DNA from: a bacterium
GTDB lineage: Bacteria > Patescibacteriota > Gracilibacteria > UM-FILTER-43-11
NCBI GenBank assembly: GCA_030427295.1
Contig: JAUHWS010000001.1
Coordinates: 14,079 to 78,078, forward strand
Direction of reading: 5' to 3'
DNA length: 64,000 nt
The position numbers were made by a program, and so were the translations under genes. This document shows, in pieces, positions 7,960 through 27,558 of the stretch. Positions within the stretch are counted from its first letter, which is position 1; every line of letters begins with the position of its first letter. Below the pieces are notes generated by a model, which searched no databases, was not told where the DNA came from, and worked only from the letters and a program-made list of their open reading frames with translations.

Positions 7960-8008
7960 TGCAACTTAATTAAGCTCAAGGGCAGTATAGCCCAAAATCG
8001 CCACTGAA

Positions 8009-8245
8009 CTAATATACCCCCCCTACTGTTTCCAAAGCCAAAGGCGTATTATGCTGAGTTACTGCAAAATCTTCCCCGTCGCGCTCTACGGTGAGTCGCA
8101 ACGCACCACGCACGTCTTTGATCATTTTAGGCATCACCCCCCGTTTCACATGGGCTACAAACCCCTGCTTGCTGATGATTCCTCGATAATCTTCCATTTC
8201 AATCAGATCGAGTAATTCGAGTAGGGTGAGTTTTTTTGCAACCAT
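8009..8245 (-). CDS. Small hypothetical protein (78 aa) ending ..ALETVGGVY; possible ubiquitin-like/processed partner of the JAB protein
   Basis: Co-directional and 49 nt upstream of the JAB gene. A GG dipeptide lies 2 residues from the C-terminus. The fold assignment is not supported by any motif I can recognise. Confidence 0.35.
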   Translation of the reverse strand: MVAKKLTLLELLDLIEMEDYRGIISKQGFVAHVKRGVMPKMIKDVRGALRLTVERDGEDFAVTQHNTPLALETVGGVY

Positions 8246-8538
8246 AGTGTTTTTGTTGTTATTTTTTATTTCCCCCCGCTCAAAACAGTCTCAATCTCTT
8301 TTTGCATATCTCCTCATTATACCTGAACAAAAACAATTAATCAAGCCTTTTTAGGCTTTTTAAGAGGAAGAACGGATCATTTGAAGAGTATTTTTTATTG
8401 ACTTTTTGGGTGAAAATTGATAGGGTGGTTTCTTCATTCCGGGTATGAAGTTTTGCTCCTGGGCGCAAAAAAATTCATCCACGGTTTTTTTGTTTCCCAT
8501 TCATTTCTATATCGGTAACCCCCTCTCGATATAAAATC

Positions 8539-11500
8539 ATGAAGAAACTTCTTTCATTTTTGCTTGCCTTCCAAGTCCTTTTTCAATTTCCCGCAGCTGT
8601 TTTAGCCGAGGGAGAAGAGACCCTTCAGGATCCACCCCAAGACGAACAAGTGGAGGACATCCCTAATGAGCCCGTTCCCGAAAACGAGCCTGAGCCCCTT
8701 CTCGAAGAGCCCGAAATCAAGATTGTACTCAACGAAATCCTTCCCGATCCTCTCGAATCCGATGCTGAAAATGAGTTTATCGAACTCTATAATGCTGGAG
8801 AAGCAGAAGTCGATCTAGCAGGGTGGTCATTGGATGATGTCGATTTAGACGACGAAGATATCTATCACTTCGACAACCCCGAACTCAATTATGTGCTTGA
8901 GCCCGATGGCTATCTCACTTTATTCAGACCAGAAACCAATATCACCCTGAACAACACAGGGGACATGGTTTATTTGTTCGATGATCAAGGCGATGAAATC
9001 GACTATTTTGAGTATTTAGACAGCTCAGCAGGAAGGTCGTGGGGACGCAACCTAGAAAATCCCGAAGAGTGGATCCTCTTGCCCAGTCCCAGTCCTGATG
9101 AAGCCAATGAATTTTTAAATGATCCGCCCACGGCAGTCATCACCCTTCAAGGAGGAACAGAGAACATGTCTATCAATGTGACTGGCGAAGACAGCAGTGA
9201 TCCCAATGGGGACAAGCTCAGTTACGTATGGGAATTTGAACCAGGAGTGACAGAAGAAAGTAAAAATCCTCTCACCTATATATATGCCACCGAAGGCCCC
9301 AAAACCATCACTCTCACTGTCACCGATGAGTTTGGTTTATCGGATGAGGTCACCCTCGACTTTATGGCTCAATCACCTCAACAAGAAGATCCAGAGGACG
9401 AAGAAGCTGAAGAGGGGGCTGAATCAGAATCCGATGAGGAAGAGGCGCCCGAGACTTATCCCACCCACCAACTCATCAATGAAATTCTTCCCAATCCTGA
9501 AGGGGCTGATGGAGAAGGGGAATGGATTGAACTCTTCAATTCGACTAACGAAATCATCGATCTGTCAGACTGGTATTTAGATGATGAAGAAGGTGCCAGT
9601 AGCCCCTTTCAAATCCCTCAGGATACTCAACTCCAACCTCAAACCTACTTGGTTTTTAAAGGGCTTGACCTCAACCTCTCCCTCAAAAATTCGGACGATG
9701 TGGTCAGACTCCTTAATCCCAACAAAGAAGAGGTCGAGCGAATTGAATACACAGAAGCCAAGGAGGCTCAAAGTTATGCCAAGCAGTCTGATGACTTATT
9801 CTCCTGGACCTCAACGGTGACCCCAAATGCAGAAAACAGCTTTCCGCCCCCACCCAAAACCTACCAAAAAGGCGATGTTTTGATCGACTCCGCGCTGCCT
9901 AATCCCGAAGGGGCTGACACCGGAAAGGAAAAGATAAAACTTAAGAACACCACTCCAGAGACCATCGACCTGTCCTACTGGAAAATCGCGGATAGCAGCA
10001 GCGAAACCGAGCTGCTCAACCTTTCCATTCCAGCCTATGGAATCAAAGAGCTCAATGCAGAGGATTTTAAATTCTCCCTCAACAACAGTGATGAATCGCT
10101 CACGCTCTACGACCCAACAGGCAACGTCATCGATGAGATAAGTTGGACCAGCTCAACATCAGGACTTTGGACCTTCAATCTCAACCTTCTTTCAGAAGGA
10201 ATGTCAGTCAGTGTGGTTGAGGTGGTCGATGGAGACACCTTCAAAGTGCAGGCAGGTAACAGAGAGCTGACCGTGCGACTGATTGGCGTGGACACCCCCG
10301 AAACCGTTCACCCCTCCAAACCGGTTGAGTATTACGGTAAACAAGCATCAGACTTCCTCAAAAACTTACTTCAAAACCAAACTGTTCGTTTGTATTTTGA
10401 TGAACGTAAAACAGACAGTTATGGTCGAGTTTTAGCTTATGTTTACCTCCACGACACCCTAGTGAATGTCAAAATGATCCAAGAAGGCTATGGCTATGCC
10501 TACACCCGATTTCCCTTTGTTCGCCTAGATGAATTTATTGCTTACGAAGAAGAGGCGAGGACTGCCGGGCGAGGGCTTTGGGCAGATGAAGACGTGGTGG
10601 AGGTGATCGAGGAATTGATTGAAGAAAACGCTCAAAATAAAGGCAAAGTGGAAGCTGAAGTCAAGTCAATTCCTGAGAATGAGGAAGAAATTGATGATGA
10701 AGACGGAGCTCCCAAAAATACTGATGAAGAAAAGGTTGACGATGAGTTGGGAAAAGATTGTGATTCCGACACCCTCAAAATCGATTCCTTCTTGGCGTAT
10801 GCGGAAAAAGGGGTTTCCGAGGAATTTATCACCCTCATCAATACGGGGGACCAGCCTGTCTGTTTGTCTGGATGGCAGTTGGATGACGAATTGGAGGGAG
10901 GTTCAAAACCTTTCACCATAAAGGAGGGTGAAATCGCTCCAGGGAAAACCATGGAATTTGGGAAAGAGATCAGCAAAATTTCCCTCAATAATTCCAATGA
11001 CTGTGCCAGCTTAATTCGGCCCAACGGAGAATTAGCAGATCAGATCTGCTATGGCAAAACGAGTAAAGGGGAAATCCTCACTCACGCTGGAAGCGCCGGA
11101 GCTTCCGAAAAATCAAGTTCCAAAAAAACCACTTCGTCGTCCAAAAAATCCTCTAAAAAAAATGAGGAAAAACCTGCCAAGCACACCTTCAAACGTGACA
11201 GTACTTCCTATCGAGGAGAGTTGGTCAATAAAAGTTACGCAGGATGGGTCGTGGGCTTTGATCAAGATGAGCAAGTATTGGTACTCAAGCTAGACGATGA
11301 AAAGCTCAAGCCCATTTCCTATGCTCACAGTTTGTTCGATATCGATACGATTAAAGATTTAGCTGATTTGTCCGAGGAGGTTGTGTTGGATGTTTATGAA
11401 ACCCCTGATGAAGCACACTTGATTTCCATGCACTCCTCGGCACCAGAACAGATCAAAAAACACTCATGGGCTCACCTATTTCCATTTATCCTGATTCCTG

Positions 11501-11547
11501 TCCTTCTCACAGGACTCATTGCCTACAAAAAATTTGGCCTCAAGTGA
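8539..11547 (+). CDS. Membrane-anchored extracellular multidomain nuclease (signal peptide, 4-5 lamin-tail domains, PKD domain, staphylococcal-nuclease/thermonuclease domain, C-terminal TM anchor)
   Basis: LTD motifs (LNEILPDP..EFIELYN..DLAGWSLDD, repeated); PKD (DPNGDKLSYVWEF..TITLTVTDEFGLSDEV); SNase (VVDGDTFKV..VRLIGVDTPE..YGRVLAYVY..QEGYGYAY..ARTAGRGLWA); N-terminal signal peptide; C-terminal hydrophobic helix. Confidence 0.88.
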   Translation: MKKLLSFLLAFQVLFQFPAAVLAEGEETLQDPPQDEQVEDIPNEPVPENEPEPLLEEPEIKIVLNEILPDPLESDAENEFIELYNAGEAEVDLAGWSLDDVDLDDEDIYHFDNPELNYVLEPDGYLTLFRPETNITLNNTGDMVYLFDDQGDEIDYFEYLDSSAGRSWGRNLENPEEWILLPSPSPDEANEFLNDPPTAVITLQGGTENMSINVTGEDSSDPNGDKLSYVWEFEPGVTEESKNPLTYIYATEGPKTITLTVTDEFGLSDEVTLDFMAQSPQQEDPEDEEAEEGAESESDEEEAPETYPTHQLINEILPNPEGADGEGEWIELFNSTNEIIDLSDWYLDDEEGASSPFQIPQDTQLQPQTYLVFKGLDLNLSLKNSDDVVRLLNPNKEEVERIEYTEAKEAQSYAKQSDDLFSWTSTVTPNAENSFPPPPKTYQKGDVLIDSALPNPEGADTGKEKIKLKNTTPETIDLSYWKIADSSSETELLNLSIPAYGIKELNAEDFKFSLNNSDESLTLYDPTGNVIDEISWTSSTSGLWTFNLNLLSEGMSVSVVEVVDGDTFKVQAGNRELTVRLIGVDTPETVHPSKPVEYYGKQASDFLKNLLQNQTVRLYFDERKTDSYGRVLAYVYLHDTLVNVKMIQEGYGYAYTRFPFVRLDEFIAYEEEARTAGRGLWADEDVVEVIEELIEENAQNKGKVEAEVKSIPENEEEIDDEDGAPKNTDEEKVDDELGKDCDSDTLKIDSFLAYAEKGVSEEFITLINTGDQPVCLSGWQLDDELEGGSKPFTIKEGEIAPGKTMEFGKEISKISLNNSNDCASLIRPNGELADQICYGKTSKGEILTHAGSAGASEKSSSKKTTSSSKKSSKKNEEKPAKHTFKRDSTSYRGELVNKSYAGWVVGFDQDEQVLVLKLDDEKLKPISYAHSLFDIDTIKDLADLSEEVVLDVYETPDEAHLISMHSSAPEQIKKHSWAHLFPFILIPVLLTGLIAYKKFGLK

Positions 11548-11572
11548 CTGAAATTGAAATGATTCACCGTTT

Positions 11573-11614
11573 GCAAAAGTATATACTAGGTATATACCTA
11601 GTATATACTTTTGC
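11573..11614. repeat. Perfect 42-bp palindrome with three GTATATAC boxes spaced 11 bp apart
   Basis: GCAAAAGTATATACTAGGTATATACCTAGTATATACTTTTGC equals its own reverse complement. Boxes at 11579-86, 11590-97 and 11601-08. Confidence 0.9.
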
Positions 11615-11661
11615 TTGACAAAAAAATTTGAAAGAATAAAATCAAATGACTGATTGATAAC

Positions 11662-12111
11662 TTGTTTATTGTAATGGGTCAGCCTTCAATTAACGTATTG
11701 TTTTTAAGCCAGAGGCCTGAGGCACCTGATGAAGGTGACCTCAAGACTATCAGAGGATACTTGCACGGAGTCCTGATGAGAATTGCATCTGTGGCAGCTT
11801 CGAGTGAAGATATGAGTGAAATTCGAAATGGCGTCGATAACTTTGTACACTCAGGCATGACAACTGCCAGGCAAAGAGGTCACTATGTGCAGACCGGTAA
11901 TGATGGCCGCTGGGAATACATAACTCATGATTTAGAAGGGGTTGATGTACGCAGACAAGTGATGTGTGTCCTAGAGGTGGCTGCACAACTTTTACATACA
12001 GCTGGCTCCTTTGTTCCCGCTCTATCTGGTCAGGACAAGAATGCTATTAAGCGCTTGGCAGGAGAAATTCGACGGCAGTCATCAGGTTCCAATGCACATG
12101 CAACTGCTTAA
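11662..12111 (+). CDS. Hypothetical protein (ORFan)
   Basis: 149-aa ORF (TTG start; an ATG alternative at 11674) with no recognisable motif. Called coding only from ORF length and absence of competing ORFs. Confidence 0.45.
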   Translation: MFIVMGQPSINVLFLSQRPEAPDEGDLKTIRGYLHGVLMRIASVAASSEDMSEIRNGVDNFVHSGMTTARQRGHYVQTGNDGRWEYITHDLEGVDVRRQVMCVLEVAAQLLHTAGSFVPALSGQDKNAIKRLAGEIRRQSSGSNAHATA

Positions 12112-12161
12112 AAGTCAAAACTCCCCCTTTATTCTCTCGCCAAAAACCATTACCATGGTGG

Positions 12162-13133
12162 GTGGTATTTTTCACCACGTCCATGACCTACCTACTCCTC
12201 ATCCTCGGTTTTGTTTTGCTCATTAAAGGGGCAGACTTTTTGGTGGACGGAGCCAGTTCCATTGCCAAGCGAGTAGGAATTTCGGATCTCATCATTGGGC
12301 TAACTATTGTTTCATTTGGAACCTCAGCGCCCGAACTGGTGGTCAACCTCATTTCCAGCTTACAGGGAGAAGGGGATATCGCCGTGGGGAGTATTGTGGG
12401 GAGTAACATTTCTAACATCCTGCTCATTTTAGGGATTTCAGCCATGATTTATCCCCTCAAAATCAAAAGTCAGACCACGTGGAAGGAGATCCCACTCAAC
12501 CTTTTAGCCGCCATCGTCTTATTCCTTGTTGCCAACGATCAATTGATCGATGGAGCTGAAACCTCGCTCTTGACCCGTATTGATGGACTAGTACTCATCT
12601 CCTTTTTCACTATTTTTATCTACTACACCATCCATATTGCTCGCTCGGAGCGAGAATTAACGGAGCAAACTCATTCTCGTCCCATCTGGCTGGCTCTAGT
12701 CATGACGGCAGTTGGAATTGTAGGGCTCACCTACGGAGGGCGTTGGGTAGTCAATAGCTCAATTGAAATTGCCTCCTCGCTCGGATTGAGTGAGGCGCTC
12801 ATTGGTTTAACTGTTGTCGCCCTAGGAACTTCATTACCAGAACTCGCCACCTCAGCTGTAGCCGCTTACAAAAGGAATACCGACATCGCCGTGGGAAATG
12901 TCGTGGGCTCCAACATCTTCAATATCTTTTGGGTCCTTGGCTTCAGCTCAAGTATCAATGACATCAATTTTTCCCCAAGCATCAACACCGACATCCTTAT
13001 CTTCGTTGGGGCGACCATTTTACTCTTTTTCTTCTCATTCACAGGAGGTCACCACCGAGTCACCAAACAAGAGGGTTTCATGATGCTTTTTGCCTACGTT
13101 GGCTACATCGTCTTTTTAGTATTGCGAGGATAA
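12162..13133 (+). CDS. Ca2+/Na+ (CaCA family, YrbG-like) antiporter
   Basis: Two alpha-repeat motifs, GTSAPELVVN and GTSLPELATS, and about 10 TM segments. Confidence 0.88.
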   Translation: MVFFTTSMTYLLLILGFVLLIKGADFLVDGASSIAKRVGISDLIIGLTIVSFGTSAPELVVNLISSLQGEGDIAVGSIVGSNISNILLILGISAMIYPLKIKSQTTWKEIPLNLLAAIVLFLVANDQLIDGAETSLLTRIDGLVLISFFTIFIYYTIHIARSERELTEQTHSRPIWLALVMTAVGIVGLTYGGRWVVNSSIEIASSLGLSEALIGLTVVALGTSLPELATSAVAAYKRNTDIAVGNVVGSNIFNIFWVLGFSSSINDINFSPSINTDILIFVGATILLFFFSFTGGHHRVTKQEGFMMLFAYVGYIVFLVLRG

Positions 13134-13145
13134 CTTTCAAAACAA

Positions 13146-14405
13146 ATGAAATCGATCTTTAAACACCTCATTCAATTTTTGCTGGGATTTAAAGCACATC
13201 GTTTCCTTAAAAAAAATCGTATCCAAGTCATTGCCATCACAGGCAGTGTGGGGAAAACCAGTACCAAAGAAGCCATTTACACGGTCTTGAAGGATCGATT
13301 CTCCGTGATGCGAAGCCGCAAGAGTTTTAACACGCCCATCGGCATGAGTCTAGCCATTCTAGGTGAGGAAGAGTCCGGTTTTTCATCTACAAAAGCCTGG
13401 GTCAAAATCTTATGGCGGGTGTTTGTAAAGAAAGGGGAAATTCCTCAAAAGATCATTCTCGAAATGGGGGCCGACAAACCCGGAGATATCAAGGCGCTCA
13501 TGCGCATTGCTCCACCTCATATTTCCATCGTCACAGCAGTTAAACCGGTTCATTTGGCAGAGGGACAATTCAAAGACATCGATGATATTGCCAAAGAGAA
13601 AGGTCGACTCGTCAACGATCTCCCTCGATTTGGTTTGGCCATTTTAAACCAAGATGACCCCCGTGTCAGTCAAATGAAAACCGTCGCCAAAAAGCTGACC
13701 TACGGCATTGATAGATCGTCAGATTTACAAGCCTCCGAAATCAAAATGACCCCCAAAAAAATCCATTTTGAAGTGCTCTATAAAGGAGAATCAGCCCGTT
13801 GTGAACTACCAGTGGTGGGCGCCTATCATATCTATGTGGCGCTCCCTGCCATTGCGGTGGGCATTTCGATGGGCATGAGTTTAGCCGAATCGTGTAAGAC
13901 ATTGGCTCATTTTCATCTCCCTTCAGGGCGCATGAACCCGATTGAAGGCCTTAATGGGGCGCACATTTTGGATGGTTCCTATAATGCCAGCCCCTCCACC
14001 ATGAAAGCGGCACTACAGATGTTAGAAGAGCTCAAAGCTCCTCGAAAAATAGCAGCCTTAGGGACCATGAATGAGTTAGGAAAACAATCCTTCGACGCCC
14101 ACATTGAAGTGGGAAAAATGGCAGGAGCGATTGCAGATCTAATCATTGCCGTAGGGCCAGAAGCCCAAAATCTCAAGCAGGGTGCCGTGGTCGCAGGGAT
14201 GAATGCTGAGTCTATTTTTACCTTTGACGATTCAAAAGAAGCAGGAGACTTACTCGCCAAAAAACTTCAAGAAGGGGACCTGGTTCTAGTGAAGGGGTCT
14301 CAAAATAAAGTACGCATGGAACGTTTAGTCAAACAAATCATGAAGGACCCCAAGCGCGCCCCCGAACTCCTCTGCCGACAAGGAAAAGCCTGGACTGAAC
14401 GGTGA
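13146..14405 (+). CDS. murF: UDP-N-acetylmuramoyl-tripeptide--D-alanyl-D-alanine ligase
   Basis: Mur ligase P-loop ITGSVGKTSTKE, plus central and C-terminal Mur ligase domains (DGSYNASP). Confidence 0.88.
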   Translation: MKSIFKHLIQFLLGFKAHRFLKKNRIQVIAITGSVGKTSTKEAIYTVLKDRFSVMRSRKSFNTPIGMSLAILGEEESGFSSTKAWVKILWRVFVKKGEIPQKIILEMGADKPGDIKALMRIAPPHISIVTAVKPVHLAEGQFKDIDDIAKEKGRLVNDLPRFGLAILNQDDPRVSQMKTVAKKLTYGIDRSSDLQASEIKMTPKKIHFEVLYKGESARCELPVVGAYHIYVALPAIAVGISMGMSLAESCKTLAHFHLPSGRMNPIEGLNGAHILDGSYNASPSTMKAALQMLEELKAPRKIAALGTMNELGKQSFDAHIEVGKMAGAIADLIIAVGPEAQNLKQGAVVAGMNAESIFTFDDSKEAGDLLAKKLQEGDLVLVKGSQNKVRMERLVKQIMKDPKRAPELLCRQGKAWTER

Positions 14406-14406
14406 A

Positions 14407-14680
14407 GTATATACTCATCCTCTCCCCAACTATATACCTAAGTCTTAAATTTCCAATTCACACCAATTCATTCCAATTCACCCCAAACAAATTTTAAAGT
14501 CTAATTCTTAATTTCTAAATTGGTTTGAATTTGCTTTATTTAAGCTATCTTTATTCCAAATAATGTTTAAAAATTAGACATTCGGAATTCGGTTTTATTT
14601 GGAAATTGTGACATTGGAAATTGGTCATTGAGAAAAAGTATATACCCACCCTCACAAAAAGTATATACCTAAGTATATGG
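14407..14680 (-). repeat. GTATATAC double-box module M2 (interior type 1, inverted relative to M1)
   Basis: Boxes at 14407-14, 14430-37 (CTATATAC), 14638-45 and 14661-68, plus a degenerate box at 14673-80. The first box starts 1 nt after the murF TGA (ggTGAaGTATATAC). Confidence 0.85.
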
Positions 14681-14714
14681 TTGTCATTCCCCCGCCACGG
14701 CGGGGGAATCGTCC
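14681..14714 (+). repeat. GTCATTCC-hairpin-GGAATCGTCC element
   Basis: ttgtcattcccccgccacggcgggggaatcgtcc. The architecture matches the elements at 19738, 20128 (inverted) and 20198. Confidence 0.75.
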
Positions 14715-14764
14715 AAATTCAGAAAAACTAAATACAGGTCACCCTCGGACTCACGTTCAGCAAC

Positions 14765-15271
14765 TCAGACCTTCCTCACCACCAAATAAACCACCGTGAT
14801 GAAACCTACCGAGATCAAGATCCAAAAAAACGGCTGATCCTTAATAGGGCTTGGATAGCCTTCCATCGAATACCCCTCCCCCAAGGCTTGTAAATCCTCT
14901 TCAGCATCGGTCAAAAGCATGGTGCGGCTACACAAATTGACCGCAAATTCCCCACTGTATTCTCCCGCGTAAATCAAGTATTCCTCACCGTCTACGAAGG
15001 GATACCCACAAGCCGCTGAATCAGAAGCGGTGGTAAACGTCACGGTTGGGCCCATTTCACCTTGCCACACCTCGTATACCTCAAAATTCACTTCAATGCG
15101 CTCCTCTTTAAAGCGAGTTTCCTTCACTTGCCCAGAGAAAACCGCGTTAGACTTCCCCATCTCCTCTAAAGCCGATCCTGGCTGAAGGCACGAGCAGGCA
15201 TGCGCTTGAGGCAAATAAAAGCCGAAGGAAAAAATAAACAGGGCAATGGTGGCAAAAAAGCGCTTTTTCAT
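14765..15271 (-). CDS. TIMP/NTR-module-like secreted protein with C-terminal TM anchor
   Basis: The signal peptide ends ..AHA and the mature N-terminus starts CSCLQPGS..AVFSGQV. Later comes ..SAACGYPFVDGEEYLIYAG..VNLCSRT. This matches the pattern of TIMP N-domains (CTCxP..., ..SVCGY..EEFLIAG..TTCS). Confidence 0.55.
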   Translation of the reverse strand: MKKRFFATIALFIFSFGFYLPQAHACSCLQPGSALEEMGKSNAVFSGQVKETRFKEERIEVNFEVYEVWQGEMGPTVTFTTASDSAACGYPFVDGEEYLIYAGEYSGEFAVNLCSRTMLLTDAEEDLQALGEGYSMEGYPSPIKDQPFFWILISVGFITVVYLVVRKV

Positions 15272-27481: not shown

Positions 27482-27558
27482 GCGCCAGTAGCTCAGGGGA
27501 TTAGAGCGTCCGGTTGCGGTCCGGGAGGTCGCAGGTTCGATTCCTGCCTGGCGCACCA
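27482..27558 (+). tRNA. tRNA-Arg (anticodon GCG), CCA encoded
   Basis: Cloverleaf read by hand: acceptor GCGCCAG/CTGGCGC, D arm GCTC-AGGGGATTA-GAGC, anticodon arm TCCGG-TTGCGGT-CCGGG, variable loop AGGTC, T arm GCAGG-TTCGATT-CCTGC, discriminator A, then CCA. Confidence 0.9.

What the first reader, a model, noticed from the sequence alone, without database searches (positions are those of the whole stretch)
11573..11614. Perfect 42-bp palindrome with three GTATATAC boxes at 11-bp (one helical turn) spacing
GCAAAAGTATATACTAGGTATATACCTAGTATATACTTTTGC is exactly self-complementary. It presents three boxes on one face of the helix, 26 nt downstream of the surface-nuclease gene and about 50 nt upstream of an ORFan. 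It could be an operator-like high-affinity site for the protein that recognises the module boxes, a cruciform-forming element, or a bidirectional hairpin terminator (A4 on the left, T4 on the right).
Basis: seen in the sequence. Interest (0 to 1): 0.6.

Follow-up and report, generated by a model that had tools for sequence, protein, structure and literature searches.

The report
Triple-box operator for an AbrB-type regulator
The 42-base perfect palindrome is real and is most likely a three-site docking array, probably with a built-in promoter, for a small AbrB/MazE-fold DNA-binding protein encoded elsewhere in this uncultured Peregrinibacteria genome, which gives a first candidate for the protein that reads the genome's 373 GTATATAC boxes.

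Summary
Positions 11573-11614 are a perfect 42-bp palindrome with three GTATATAC boxes 11 bp apart.

It is one of exactly five such triplets in the 1.48-Mb genome. None occurs in 60 related genomes.

- **Candidate reader.** One sister copy lies 21 nt upstream of a gene for a tandem (two-domain) AbrB/MazE-fold protein. As a tandem, that protein was found only in this genome.
- **Family habit.** Its single-domain relatives carry other 8-bp palindromes, phased at 11-12 bp, in front of their own genes.
- **Other lineages.** Phased GTATATAC arrays sit directly upstream of MazE/AbrB genes in Ureibacillus, Anaerococcus, a Saccharibacteria MAG and two metagenome contigs. They also precede some RelB-type genes.
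- **Published binding.** E. coli MazE and Rickettsia VapB2 bind ATATATAC(T) cores.
- **Fold.** The modelled tandem protein resembles MraZ, which binds three or four phased boxes in its own promoter.
- **Promoter geometry.** All five copies have a -35-like hexamer 15-17 nt before the TATATA of box 2, facing the downstream gene.

Best reading: an operator, with promoter, of that regulator. Here it abuts a near-consensus promoter for an ORFan.

A second role as terminator of the nuclease gene is plausible, because this copy has the strongest hairpin. No binding or RNA data exist.

The parts
11573..11614 (.). Perfect 42-bp palindrome: a triple-box operator array plus 6-nt complementary flanks on each side
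   Evidence: It is one of five genome copies of GTATATAC-N3-GTATATAC-N3-GTATATAC.
11579..11586 (.). Box 1 (GTATATAC); extended form AAGTATATACTA
   Evidence: The genome-wide logo is RR-GTATATAC-YY.
11590..11597 (.). Box 2 (GTATATAC). Its TATATA (11591-11596) is a candidate -10 hexamer of an in-array promoter P1.
   Evidence: In all five copies a -35-like hexamer lies 15-17 nt upstream of this TATATA on the gene-facing side.
11601..11608 (.). Box 3 (GTATATAC)
11570..11575 (+). TTTGCA, a weak -35-like hexamer of candidate promoter P1, with a 15-nt spacer to the TATATA of box 2
   Evidence: It matches 4 of 6 positions and is the weakest of the five copies. The sister copies have TTGACT, TTGGCA, TAGACT and TTGTAA.
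11615..11642 (+). Near-consensus sigma-70-type promoter P2 (TTGACA-16-TAAAAT) directly abutting the palindrome. Box centres then fall at about -44, -55 and -66 relative to an inferred start near 11649.
   Evidence: 11 of 12 matches, the best in 8000-15000. The transcription start is inferred, not measured.
11662..12111 (+). ORFan (149 aa from TTG 11662, or 145 aa from ATG 11674) downstream of the array. Its coding status is uncertain.
   Evidence: No Pfam hit. No homologue in 30 relatives. Codon-usage score 0.128, the best of six frames but below the 5th percentile (0.20) of real genes. Absent between the same flanking genes in G002 and G007.
8539..11547 (+). Upstream gene: 1002-aa surface nuclease (4 lamin-tail domains, PKD, SNase, C-terminal membrane anchor). 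The palindrome is the only hairpin between its stop codon and the next promoter.
12162..13133 (+). Na+/Ca2+ exchanger gene, the next conserved gene downstream. It possibly shares a transcription unit with the ORFan.
   Evidence: Orthologues in G002 (75% identity) and G007 directly follow the nuclease gene.

Best explanation
The palindrome is a protein-binding operator array. It consists of three 8-bp palindromic boxes (extended consensus RR-GTATATAC-YY) one helical turn apart.

**Inferred binding mode.** Each box is bound by one swapped-hairpin (AbrB/MazE-fold) unit. The most likely reader is the 110-aa protein encoded at G000:C9:8002-8334. This is a single chain with two AbrB domains, so one pseudo-symmetric protein would bind one palindromic box, and three would bind side by side cooperatively.

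**Inferred regulatory logic.** The protein's own gene is preceded by the same triplet, which implies autoregulation. The four other triplets, including this one, would then be its regulon. In the family as a whole the array overlaps a core promoter. A -35-like hexamer lies just upstream of box 1, box 1 falls in the spacer, box 2 supplies TATATA as the -10, and box 3 covers the start region. Binding would therefore occlude RNA polymerase.

**This locus.** The in-array promoter is weak (TTTGCA-15-TATATA), and a strong promoter (TTGACA-16-TAAAAT) starts immediately after the array. The bound protein would sit at about -44 to -66 of that promoter and would control the lineage-specific ORFan, and perhaps the exchanger gene behind it. 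The sign of the regulation is unknown.

**Extra feature of this copy.** Because it is perfectly symmetric, with 4 additional complementary flank bases per side, it also encodes the strongest RNA hairpin of the five. That hairpin probably doubles as the terminator of the nuclease gene.

**Shown:** the sequence anatomy, the copy number, the adjacency to the AbrB gene, the cross-lineage recurrence and the fold.

**Inferred:** binding, cooperativity, promoter use, direction of regulation and termination.
For: 1. There are exactly five triplets in G000, even when 2 mismatches are allowed. Three are identical 30-mers. All lie 17-54 nt upstream of a start codon.
2. The C9 copy ends 21 nt before the ATG of a protein with two MazE_antitoxin (SpoVT-AbrB) domains (E = 4e-13). 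Only two PF04014 genes exist in the assembly.
3. Co-occurrence. Box pairs number 220 in G000 and 0 in the same-genus G001 and G002. Triplets number 5 against 0 in 60 relatives. The tandem protein has no tandem homologue in 60 relatives or in a database of 5.8 billion proteins.
4. Relatives of the protein show the same design with other words.
   - The G000 paralogue at C88 and its G002 orthologue have TTACGTAA-type boxes 11 bp apart, just before the ATG.
   - L122 has CTCATGAG three times at 12 bp. L124 has a 22-bp perfect palindrome.
5. There is independent recurrence of GTATATAC arrays at 11 bp, directly upstream of PF04014 genes.
   - Ureibacillus thermophilus (gap 11 nt) and Anaerococcus provencensis (4 boxes, gap 29 nt). 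In each, this is the only such array in the genome.
   - A Saccharibacteria MAG (4 boxes) whose regulator belongs to the same mini-AbrB subfamily, at 46% identity. That genome has 7 arrays.
   - Metagenome contigs L145 and L183.
   - ORFs starting within 120 nt of an array were AbrB/MazE in 2 of 71 cases, against 1 of 3410 other ORFs on the same contigs.
6. Experimental precedent. The E. coli MazE operator has three sites, and site 'a' is TTGATATATACTGT. The R. felis VapB2 DNA core is ATATATACT (PMC4333400).
7. The AF2 model (pLDDT 84) shows two beta-beta-alpha-beta-beta halves. The best whole-chain PDB matches are MraZ (TM 0.62-0.65). MraZ binds 3-4 phased boxes in its own promoter cooperatively, with the transcription start inside a box (PMC12957436).
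8. The -35-like hexamers match 5, 5, 4, 4 and 4 of 6 positions on the gene-facing side, against 4, 3, 2, 2 and 3 on the other side. The background probability of 4 or more matches is 0.18.
Against: - There are no binding, footprint or transcript data.
- The link to the tandem AbrB protein rests on one adjacency in this genome plus analogy.
- Absence of the protein from G001 and G002 could partly reflect their 81-87% completeness.
- GTATATAC triplets elsewhere also precede RelB/DinJ-type (ribbon-helix-helix) antitoxin genes (L096, L154, L200), so the word is not specific to the AbrB fold.
- Most of the 64 metagenome sites have no regulator next to them, and many look like eukaryotic simple repeats.
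- The orthologous site in G002 and G007 lacks the element.
- This copy has the poorest in-array -35 element (4 of 6 matches, 15-nt spacer).
- The positional argument (upstream of a start codon in 5 of 5 copies) is weak in a genome with 60-170-nt intergenic gaps.
- The downstream ORFan may not be a real gene.
Confidence: 0.6

Rival explanations
1. The primary function is an intrinsic, possibly bidirectional, transcription terminator for the nuclease gene. On this reading the RNA hairpin, not the double-stranded DNA, is the functional form.
For: - It lies 25 nt after the stop codon and is the only hairpin before the next promoter.
- The RNA hairpin is -29.3 kcal/mol (z = -7.4) and is followed by UUUUGCUU, with 6 U in 8 nt. 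An A4 tract on the left would allow action in both directions.
- This copy has 4 more complementary flank base pairs, plus the spacer change that perfects the stem. Its sisters fold at only -11 to -18 kcal/mol.
- G002 and G007 carry a hairpin at the same place after the orthologous nuclease gene.
- The C90 copy is followed by U8 in the direction of its upstream gene.
Against: - Two of the five copies (C9, C3a) have no co-oriented upstream gene to terminate.
- The C3b copy has only 3 U in 8 nt.
- The stem is long and A/U-rich and swallows part of the U-tract. The consensus terminator scan did not call it.
- This reading does not explain three exactly phased 8-bp palindromes, their perfect conservation, or their recurrence in front of AbrB/MazE genes in other phyla.
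- The G002 hairpin has its T-tract on the upstream side, which is the wrong polarity for the nuclease transcript.
Confidence: 0.15
2. It is a functionless or selfish by-product of the GTATATAC module repeat family. For example, it could be a collapsed or miniature derivative of a module (a MITE/REP-like element), or a footprint of recombination between boxes, that happens to lie in intergenic DNA.
For: - It uses the same extended box (RR-GTATATAC-YY) as about 110 modules with 23-bp box pairs, 373 boxes in all.
- Both are confined to this species.
- Three copies are identical 30-mers, which is consistent with recent copying.
- The ORFan and palindrome together are an insertion relative to G002 and G007.
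- The perfect symmetry, including the flanks, could come from a single hairpin-templated repair event.
Against: - The 11-11 spacing occurs only in these five sites and never within modules.
- There are no target-site duplications and no shared flanks beyond about 3 bp.
- The same 11-bp triplet occurs in genomes that have no module family, where it sits at MazE/AbrB promoters.
- The gene-facing -35-like hexamers are not expected for junk.
Confidence: 0.15
3. It is a DNA-level structural site. It could be a cruciform-extruding palindrome used by a recombinase, a nuclease, or replication or segregation machinery, rather than by a transcription factor.
For: - It is a perfect palindrome with no spacer and an A/T-rich centre.
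- The single-strand DNA hairpin is -17.4 kcal/mol, z = -8.8.
Against: - The four sister copies are imperfect palindromes, with a spacer mismatch at the centre.
- There is no recombinase or transposase next to any copy.
- Nothing links the sites to replication landmarks.
Confidence: 0.05

Closest known systems
E. coli mazEF operator 'cab' bound by MazE, and the R. felis VapB2 operator (AbrB/SpoVT swapped-hairpin antitoxins; Marianovsky 2001; Zorzini 2015, PMC4333400)
   Same: - Three adjacent sites for a dimeric AbrB-fold domain lie in the regulator's own promoter.
- The bound core, ATATATAC(T), is nearly identical to the box here, (A)GTATATAC(T).
- The array overlaps promoter elements.
   Different: - Here the sites are three identical perfect 8-bp palindromes at a strict 11-bp period.
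- The candidate protein has no toxin partner. A glyoxalase-family gene follows it.
- It has no disordered toxin-binding tail, and it is a fused two-domain chain.
- The array is dispersed to four other promoters, including this one, so it is not private to one operon.
MraZ and its box array at the dcw promoter (PMC12957436; PDB 9sz7, 9qlg, 1n0e)
   Same: - One polypeptide carries two AbrB-like domains. MraZ entries are the best whole-chain structural matches, with TM 0.62-0.65.
- Binding is cooperative, to 3-4 boxes about one helical turn apart in its own promoter.
- The transcription start lies inside a box.
   Different: - MraZ boxes are direct GTG(G/T) repeats with a 10-bp period, not palindromes.
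- MraZ heads the dcw cluster and forms octamers or dodecamers.
- The protein here scores as PF04014 (MazE_antitoxin), not as the MraZ family.
- It is 110 aa long, and its two halves are 67% identical, which indicates a recent independent duplication.
Mini-AbrB (about 55-60 aa) regulators of Patescibacteria with phased palindromic operators
   Same: - The protein subfamily is the same, at 46-61% identity.
- The layout is the same: 2-4 eight-bp palindromes at 11-12 bp directly before the gene.
- The GTATATAC word itself recurs in the Saccharibacteria example.
   Different: - In this genome the regulator is a unique tandem fusion.
- Its box has also been amplified into about 110 intergenic modules, 373 boxes in all.
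Bidirectional Rho-independent terminators, and REP/BIME-type extragenic palindromes
   Same: - It is an intergenic hairpin just after a stop codon, with an A-tract on the left and a T-tract on the right.
- It is multi-copy and species-specific.
   Different: - The stem is 19-21 bp and A/U-rich, and is built from three phased protein-site-like boxes.
- Not all copies follow a gene.
- It is not GC-rich like REP elements.

Membership tests
AbrB/MazE/SpoVT-type operator array | Two to four adjacent dyad-symmetric sites located in or at the promoter of the gene for an AbrB-fold protein (autoregulation) | tested here: met
   A sister triplet ends 21 nt before the ATG of the tandem PF04014 protein at G000:C9:8002-8334. 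The same holds for L105, L114, L119, L145 and L183.
AbrB/MazE/SpoVT-type operator array | Site sequence of the kind shown experimentally to be bound by this fold | tested here: met
   MazE site 'a' is TTGATATATACTGT and the VapB2 core is ATATATACT (PMC4333400). The box here is AGTATATACT. This is a resemblance to published sites, not a binding test.
AbrB/MazE/SpoVT-type operator array | Direct, specific binding of the cognate protein (EMSA or footprint), and an effect on transcription | not testable with these tools
AbrB/MazE/SpoVT-type operator array | This particular copy lies in a promoter region | tested here: met
   TTGACA-16-TAAAAT starts 1 nt after the palindrome. A weak in-array promoter, TTTGCA-15-TATATA, is also present. 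Both promoters are predicted, not mapped.
MraZ regulon site | The regulator belongs to the MraZ family and heads the dcw cluster; boxes are direct GTG(G/T) repeats at 10 bp | tested here: not met
   Pfam assigns PF04014, not MraZ. The neighbouring genes are a glyoxalase-family gene and an unrelated 463-aa ORF. The boxes are palindromic at 11 bp. Only the architecture is alike.
Type II toxin-antitoxin operator | The regulator is an antitoxin co-transcribed with a toxin gene | tested here: not met
   The gene after the tandem AbrB encodes a VOC/glyoxalase-family protein (E = 2e-19). No MazF, PIN or Doc toxin is adjacent.
Rho-independent terminator | A stable hairpin immediately followed by a U-rich tract, shortly after a stop codon | tested here: inconclusive
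   The hairpin is -29.3 kcal/mol, lies 25 nt after the stop and is followed by UUUUGCUU. However, the stem is A/U-rich, pairs with part of the U-tract, and was not called by the consensus scan.
Rho-independent terminator | Transcript 3' ends at the U-tract | not testable with these tools
MITE / REP-like mobile repeat | Dispersed copies with terminal inverted repeats, target-site duplications or an associated transposase (RAYT/TnpA) | tested here: not met
   There are five dispersed copies, but the flanks share no duplication and at most about 3-8 nt of similarity. No transposase lies next to any copy.

The most novel reading that the evidence does not exclude
The tandem AbrB-fold protein (G000:C9:8002-8334) reads all 373 GTATATAC boxes, not only the five triplets. 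On this reading, the species-specific modules (about 110 intergenic elements with 23-bp box pairs) are a repeat family that has spread binding sites for one recently duplicated mini-regulator through a 1.5-Mb CPR genome. The five 11-bp triplets would be its high-affinity promoter-operators. The modules would be a genome-wide layer of lower-order sites, used for titration, nucleoid organisation or insulation at gene ends. That would be a rare, datable case of a transcription factor and a repeat family arising together in one species.
Probability: 0.3. Interest if true: 0.75.

Novelty: new variant of a known kind. Interest (0 to 1): 0.55.

Why it matters
- **Gene regulation in CPR bacteria.** Regulation in candidate-phyla-radiation (Patescibacteria/Peregrinibacteria) bacteria is almost unstudied. 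This finding yields a compact, directly testable regulator-operator pair: a 110-aa protein and a 30-42-bp site.
- **A candidate box reader.** Earlier follow-ups of this genome's GTATATAC module family left the box-reading protein unknown. The autoregulatory triplet in front of the tandem AbrB gene supplies a specific candidate.
- **Independent origin of an architecture.** The MraZ-like design, with two AbrB domains in one chain and phased boxes, seems to have arisen again by a recent internal duplication.
- **Wider use of the motif.** If confirmed, the same phased GTATATAC array could serve as a predictive signature for AbrB/MazE-type regulons in several phyla.

Tried and rejected
- **Taxonomy from EF-Tu.** The protein is too conserved to place the genome. 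Earlier notes say Peregrinibacteria.
- **Conservation in relatives.** The triplet (with up to 2 mismatches) and the 23-bp box pairs are absent from 60 relatives. The orthologous nuclease-exchanger gap in G002 and G007 lacks the element. I therefore dropped vertical conservation as an argument.
- **Exact near-consensus triplet in JGI metagenomes.** There were 0 hits, so no sister strains were available for population-level comparison.
- **The loose pattern in metagenomes.** Many hits look like eukaryote-type simple repeats. I used this set only for an enrichment estimate.
- **BLAST of a 4-box array against plasmids and phages.** No match, probably because of low-complexity masking.
- **IMG/VR scan.** It gave 7 loci, mostly Bacillus-prophage-like or long tandem arrays, and none was informative.
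- **Full-text search for GTATATAC.** It returned only primers and unrelated sequences.
- **Rfam.** There is nothing in the region; the only window hit is tRNA-Arg at 27482.
- **The idea that the genes downstream of the five triplets are one family.** Rejected. They are TspO, a 64-aa ORF, a 106-aa ORF, the 149-aa ORFan and the AbrB gene, with no shared Pfam family.
- **A cyanobacterial (HIP1/STRR) origin.** I considered this because of the heptamer repeats and rejected it on genome size and octamer counts.

Full report
**1. Observation**

Window 11573-11614 is GCAAAAGTATATACTAGGTATATACCTAGTATATACTTTTGC. It consists of two 21-nt arms that are 100% complementary, with no spacer, and it equals its own reverse complement. 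The three GTATATAC boxes start at 11579, 11590 and 11601.

The octamer occurs 22 times in the window against 0.15 expected. It occurs 373 times in the 1.48-Mb, 98-contig, 43% GC genome, where it is the commonest palindromic octamer.

The nuclease ORF (8539-11547) carries lamin-tail, PKD and SNase domains and stops 25 nt before the palindrome. The ORFan starts 47 nt (TTG) or 59 nt (ATG) after it.

**2. Family context**

Genome-wide box-to-box distances are dominated by 23 bp (111 cases). These are the box pairs of the intergenic modules that earlier follow-ups described. A distance of 11 bp occurs exactly 10 times, always as 11+11 triplets.

There are five triplets: C3:9870, C3:14891, C9:7952, C45:25657 (this one) and C90:6229.
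- Three are the identical 30-mer GTATATACTAGGTATATACTTAGTATATAC.
- This copy differs by one base (CTA instead of TTA), and that change makes it perfectly symmetric.
- It alone also has 4 further complementary flank bases (GCAA/TTGC) beyond the AAG/CTT that all copies share.

Allowing 2 mismatches finds no further site in the genome and none in 60 related genomes. The 23-bp pairs are likewise confined to this genome: 220 against 0 in the two same-genus genomes. The extended box is RR-GTATATAC-YY for all 373 boxes.

**3. What sits next to the five copies**

All five lie 17-54 nt upstream of a start codon.

| Copy | Downstream gene |
|---|---|
| C3a | TspO (161 aa) |
| C3b | 64-aa ORF |
| C90 | 106-aa ORF |
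| C45 | 149-aa ORFan |
| C9 | 110-aa protein with two MazE_antitoxin (SpoVT-AbrB) domains |

The C9 protein begins MANKKHARKLNKVGGGTYSVTLPIEAIRELKWK..., and the motif recurs in the second half. Its Pfam hit is E = 4e-13 with two stretches. Its halves are 67% identical. A glyoxalase-family gene follows it, not a toxin.

Only two PF04014 genes exist in the assembly: this one and a 57-aa single-domain paralogue on C88.

The tandem form is found nowhere else. There are only single-domain matches in 60 relatives, and only proteins of about 60 aa in a database of 5.8 billion proteins. The boxes and the tandem protein are therefore both specific to this species.

**4. The protein family habitually carries phased palindromes in front of its own gene**

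- The C88 paralogue and its G002 orthologue have TTACGT(C/A)A boxes 11 bp apart immediately before the ATG.
- The closest database homologues have CTCATGAG three times at 12 bp (L122), GCTACTGAATTAATTCAGTAGC (L124) and ACTACTGAAT twice (L123), directly upstream.

The C9 triplet fits this pattern as the autoregulatory operator of the tandem protein.

**5. Independent recurrence of the same array**

A scan of 185,579 species genomes for GTATATAC-N3-GTATATAC-N3-GTATATAC gave 26 stretches in roughly a dozen lineages. In three of those lineages the array is directly upstream of a PF04014 gene.
- Ureibacillus thermophilus MazE, gap 11 nt.
- Anaerococcus provencensis MazE, four boxes, gap 29 nt.
- A Saccharibacteria MAG whose 58-aa regulator is 46% identical to the protein here, four boxes.

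In the two Firmicutes this is the only such array in the genome. The Saccharibacteria MAG has seven arrays, a regulon-like situation parallel to this genome.

A metagenome scan added a MazE (L145) and a mini-AbrB (L183). ORFs starting within 120 nt of an array were AbrB/MazE in 2 of 71 cases, against 1 of 3410 other ORFs on the same contigs.

Two caveats apply.
- Triplets also precede RelB/DinJ-type antitoxin genes (L096, L154, L200).
- Many metagenome hits are simple-repeat DNA.

The word is therefore an operator type of small beta-strand DNA binders, and it is not exclusive to AbrB.

**6. Published precedent and fold**

- E. coli MazE binds a three-site operator whose central site is TTGATATATACTGT. 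Rickettsia VapB2, which has the same fold, binds a core ATATATACT (PMC4333400). Both are almost the box seen here.
- The AF2 model of the tandem protein (pLDDT 84, pTM 0.74) has two beta-beta-alpha-beta-beta halves.
- Its best whole-chain PDB matches are MraZ entries, including MraZ on its 4-box promoter (TM 0.62-0.65, probability 1.0).
- MraZ is a two-AbrB-domain chain. It binds 3-4 boxes about one turn apart in its own promoter cooperatively, with the transcription start inside a box (PMC12957436).
- The protein here is not an MraZ family member. The likeness is architectural.

**7. Promoter geometry**

When each copy is oriented toward its downstream gene, a -35-like hexamer lies 3-5 nt before box 1. 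That places it 15-17 nt before the TATATA of box 2.

| Side | Hexamers | Matches to TTGACA (of 6) |
|---|---|---|
| Gene-facing | TTGACT, TTGGCA, TTTGCA, TAGACT, TTGTAA | 5, 5, 4, 4, 4 |
| Opposite | not listed | 4, 3, 2, 2, 3 |

The background probability of 4 or more matches is 0.18. Four copies leave only 17-29 nt to the start codon, so the promoter must overlap the array.

This copy is the exception.
- Its in-array -35 is the weakest.
- A separate promoter, TTGACA-16-TAAAAT, with 11 of 12 matches and the best in 7 kb, starts at 11615.
- That places the box centres near -44, -55 and -66.

**8. The hairpin reading**

The RNA hairpin of this copy is -29.3 kcal/mol (z = -7.4), against -11 to -18 kcal/mol for its sisters. 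It is followed by UUUUGCUU. As single-stranded DNA it folds at -17.4 kcal/mol.

In G002 and G007 the nuclease gene is followed directly by the exchanger gene, with a hairpin in the short gap and no ORFan. The palindrome therefore occupies a terminator-like position, and the ORFan, promoter and palindrome are new in this species.

Termination cannot explain the family. C9 and C3a have nothing upstream to terminate, and C3b lacks a U-tract. I therefore treat termination as a likely second role of this copy.

The extra symmetry could reflect selection for the stem, or a single hairpin-templated repair event.

**9. The downstream ORFan**

- It has no Pfam hit and no homologue in 30 relatives.
- Its codon score is 0.128, against 0.39 +/- 0.11 for real genes.
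- It may be a young or acquired gene, or it may not be coding at all.

**10. Verdict**

This is most likely (about 0.6) an operator array for an AbrB-fold regulator. The C9 tandem protein is the specific candidate, at about 0.5.

Rival readings:
- primary terminator, 0.15
- by-product of the module repeat family, 0.15
- structural or cruciform site, 0.05

Earlier AI notes on other CPR genomes reached the same kind of reading for GTATATAC arrays. I saw them after forming mine, and they are not independent evidence.

Noticed in passing
G000:C9:8002-8334 (outside the window; locus L086 1501-1830): A gene for a 110-aa protein made of two SpoVT-AbrB domains that are 67% identical to each other. As a tandem it is unique in a database of 5.8 billion proteins. 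It is preceded by a GTATATAC triplet and followed by a glyoxalase-family gene. It is a candidate reader of all the GTATATAC boxes.
   Followed up: yes
G000:C88:771-944 (L090) and G002:C168 (L087): A single-domain mini-AbrB paralogue and its same-genus orthologue both carry two TTACGTAA-type palindromes 11 bp apart, immediately upstream of the ATG. This is the same operator design with a different word.
   Followed up: partly
window 11548-12161 versus L127 (G002) and L128 (G007): The palindrome, the strong promoter and the 149-aa ORFan form a lineage-specific stretch of about 600 bp between the nuclease and Na/Ca-exchanger genes. In G002 the two genes are about 120 nt apart.
   Followed up: partly
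L127:1400-1450 (G002): The hairpin after the orthologous nuclease gene is TTTTTTGAAGGCGATG...CATCGCCTTCAAAAAA. Its T-tract is upstream and its A-tract downstream, so the polarity is wrong for terminating the nuclease transcript.
   Followed up: no
L097, L103, L104, L107, L114, L117 (Saccharibacteria MAG CAYYEP01; G061): A 1.1-Mb Saccharibacteria genome has seven 11-bp-phased GTATATAC arrays on different contigs. The 4-box array lies in front of a mini-AbrB gene. This is a parallel regulon in another CPR phylum.
   Followed up: partly
L096, L100, L154, L200, L141: GTATATAC triplets also lie directly upstream of RelB/DinJ-type or ribbon-helix-helix-like antitoxin genes, so the same operator word is used by a second DNA-binding fold. 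In L100 the triplet is followed by TTGTCA-16-TATAAT, the same layout as at window 11615.
   Followed up: partly
L098, L101, L102, L109-L111, L115, L116 (Candidatus Enterousia spp.): A conserved GTATATACACT x3 array lies about 30 nt downstream of a TTGACA hexamer, at an orthologous locus in at least eight Enterousia species. No small regulator gene was seen next to it.
   Followed up: no
L256:7334-7451 (IMG/VR contig): Eleven head-to-tail GTATATACAAG units occur in a 164-kb viral contig. A related contig (L252) has three.
   Followed up: no
genome-wide box pairs, e.g. G000:C1:18346-18376: The 15-nt spacers inside the 23-bp module box pairs fall into a few types (TTTGGGTTGAGGTGG, TTTGGGTTGACTTTA, and others). 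Some contain a TTGACT hexamer.
   Followed up: no
G000:C90:5879-6199: The 106-aa ORF downstream of the C90 triplet has no coding signal by codon usage (score about 0 in all frames). That triplet may therefore serve something other than this ORF.
   Followed up: no
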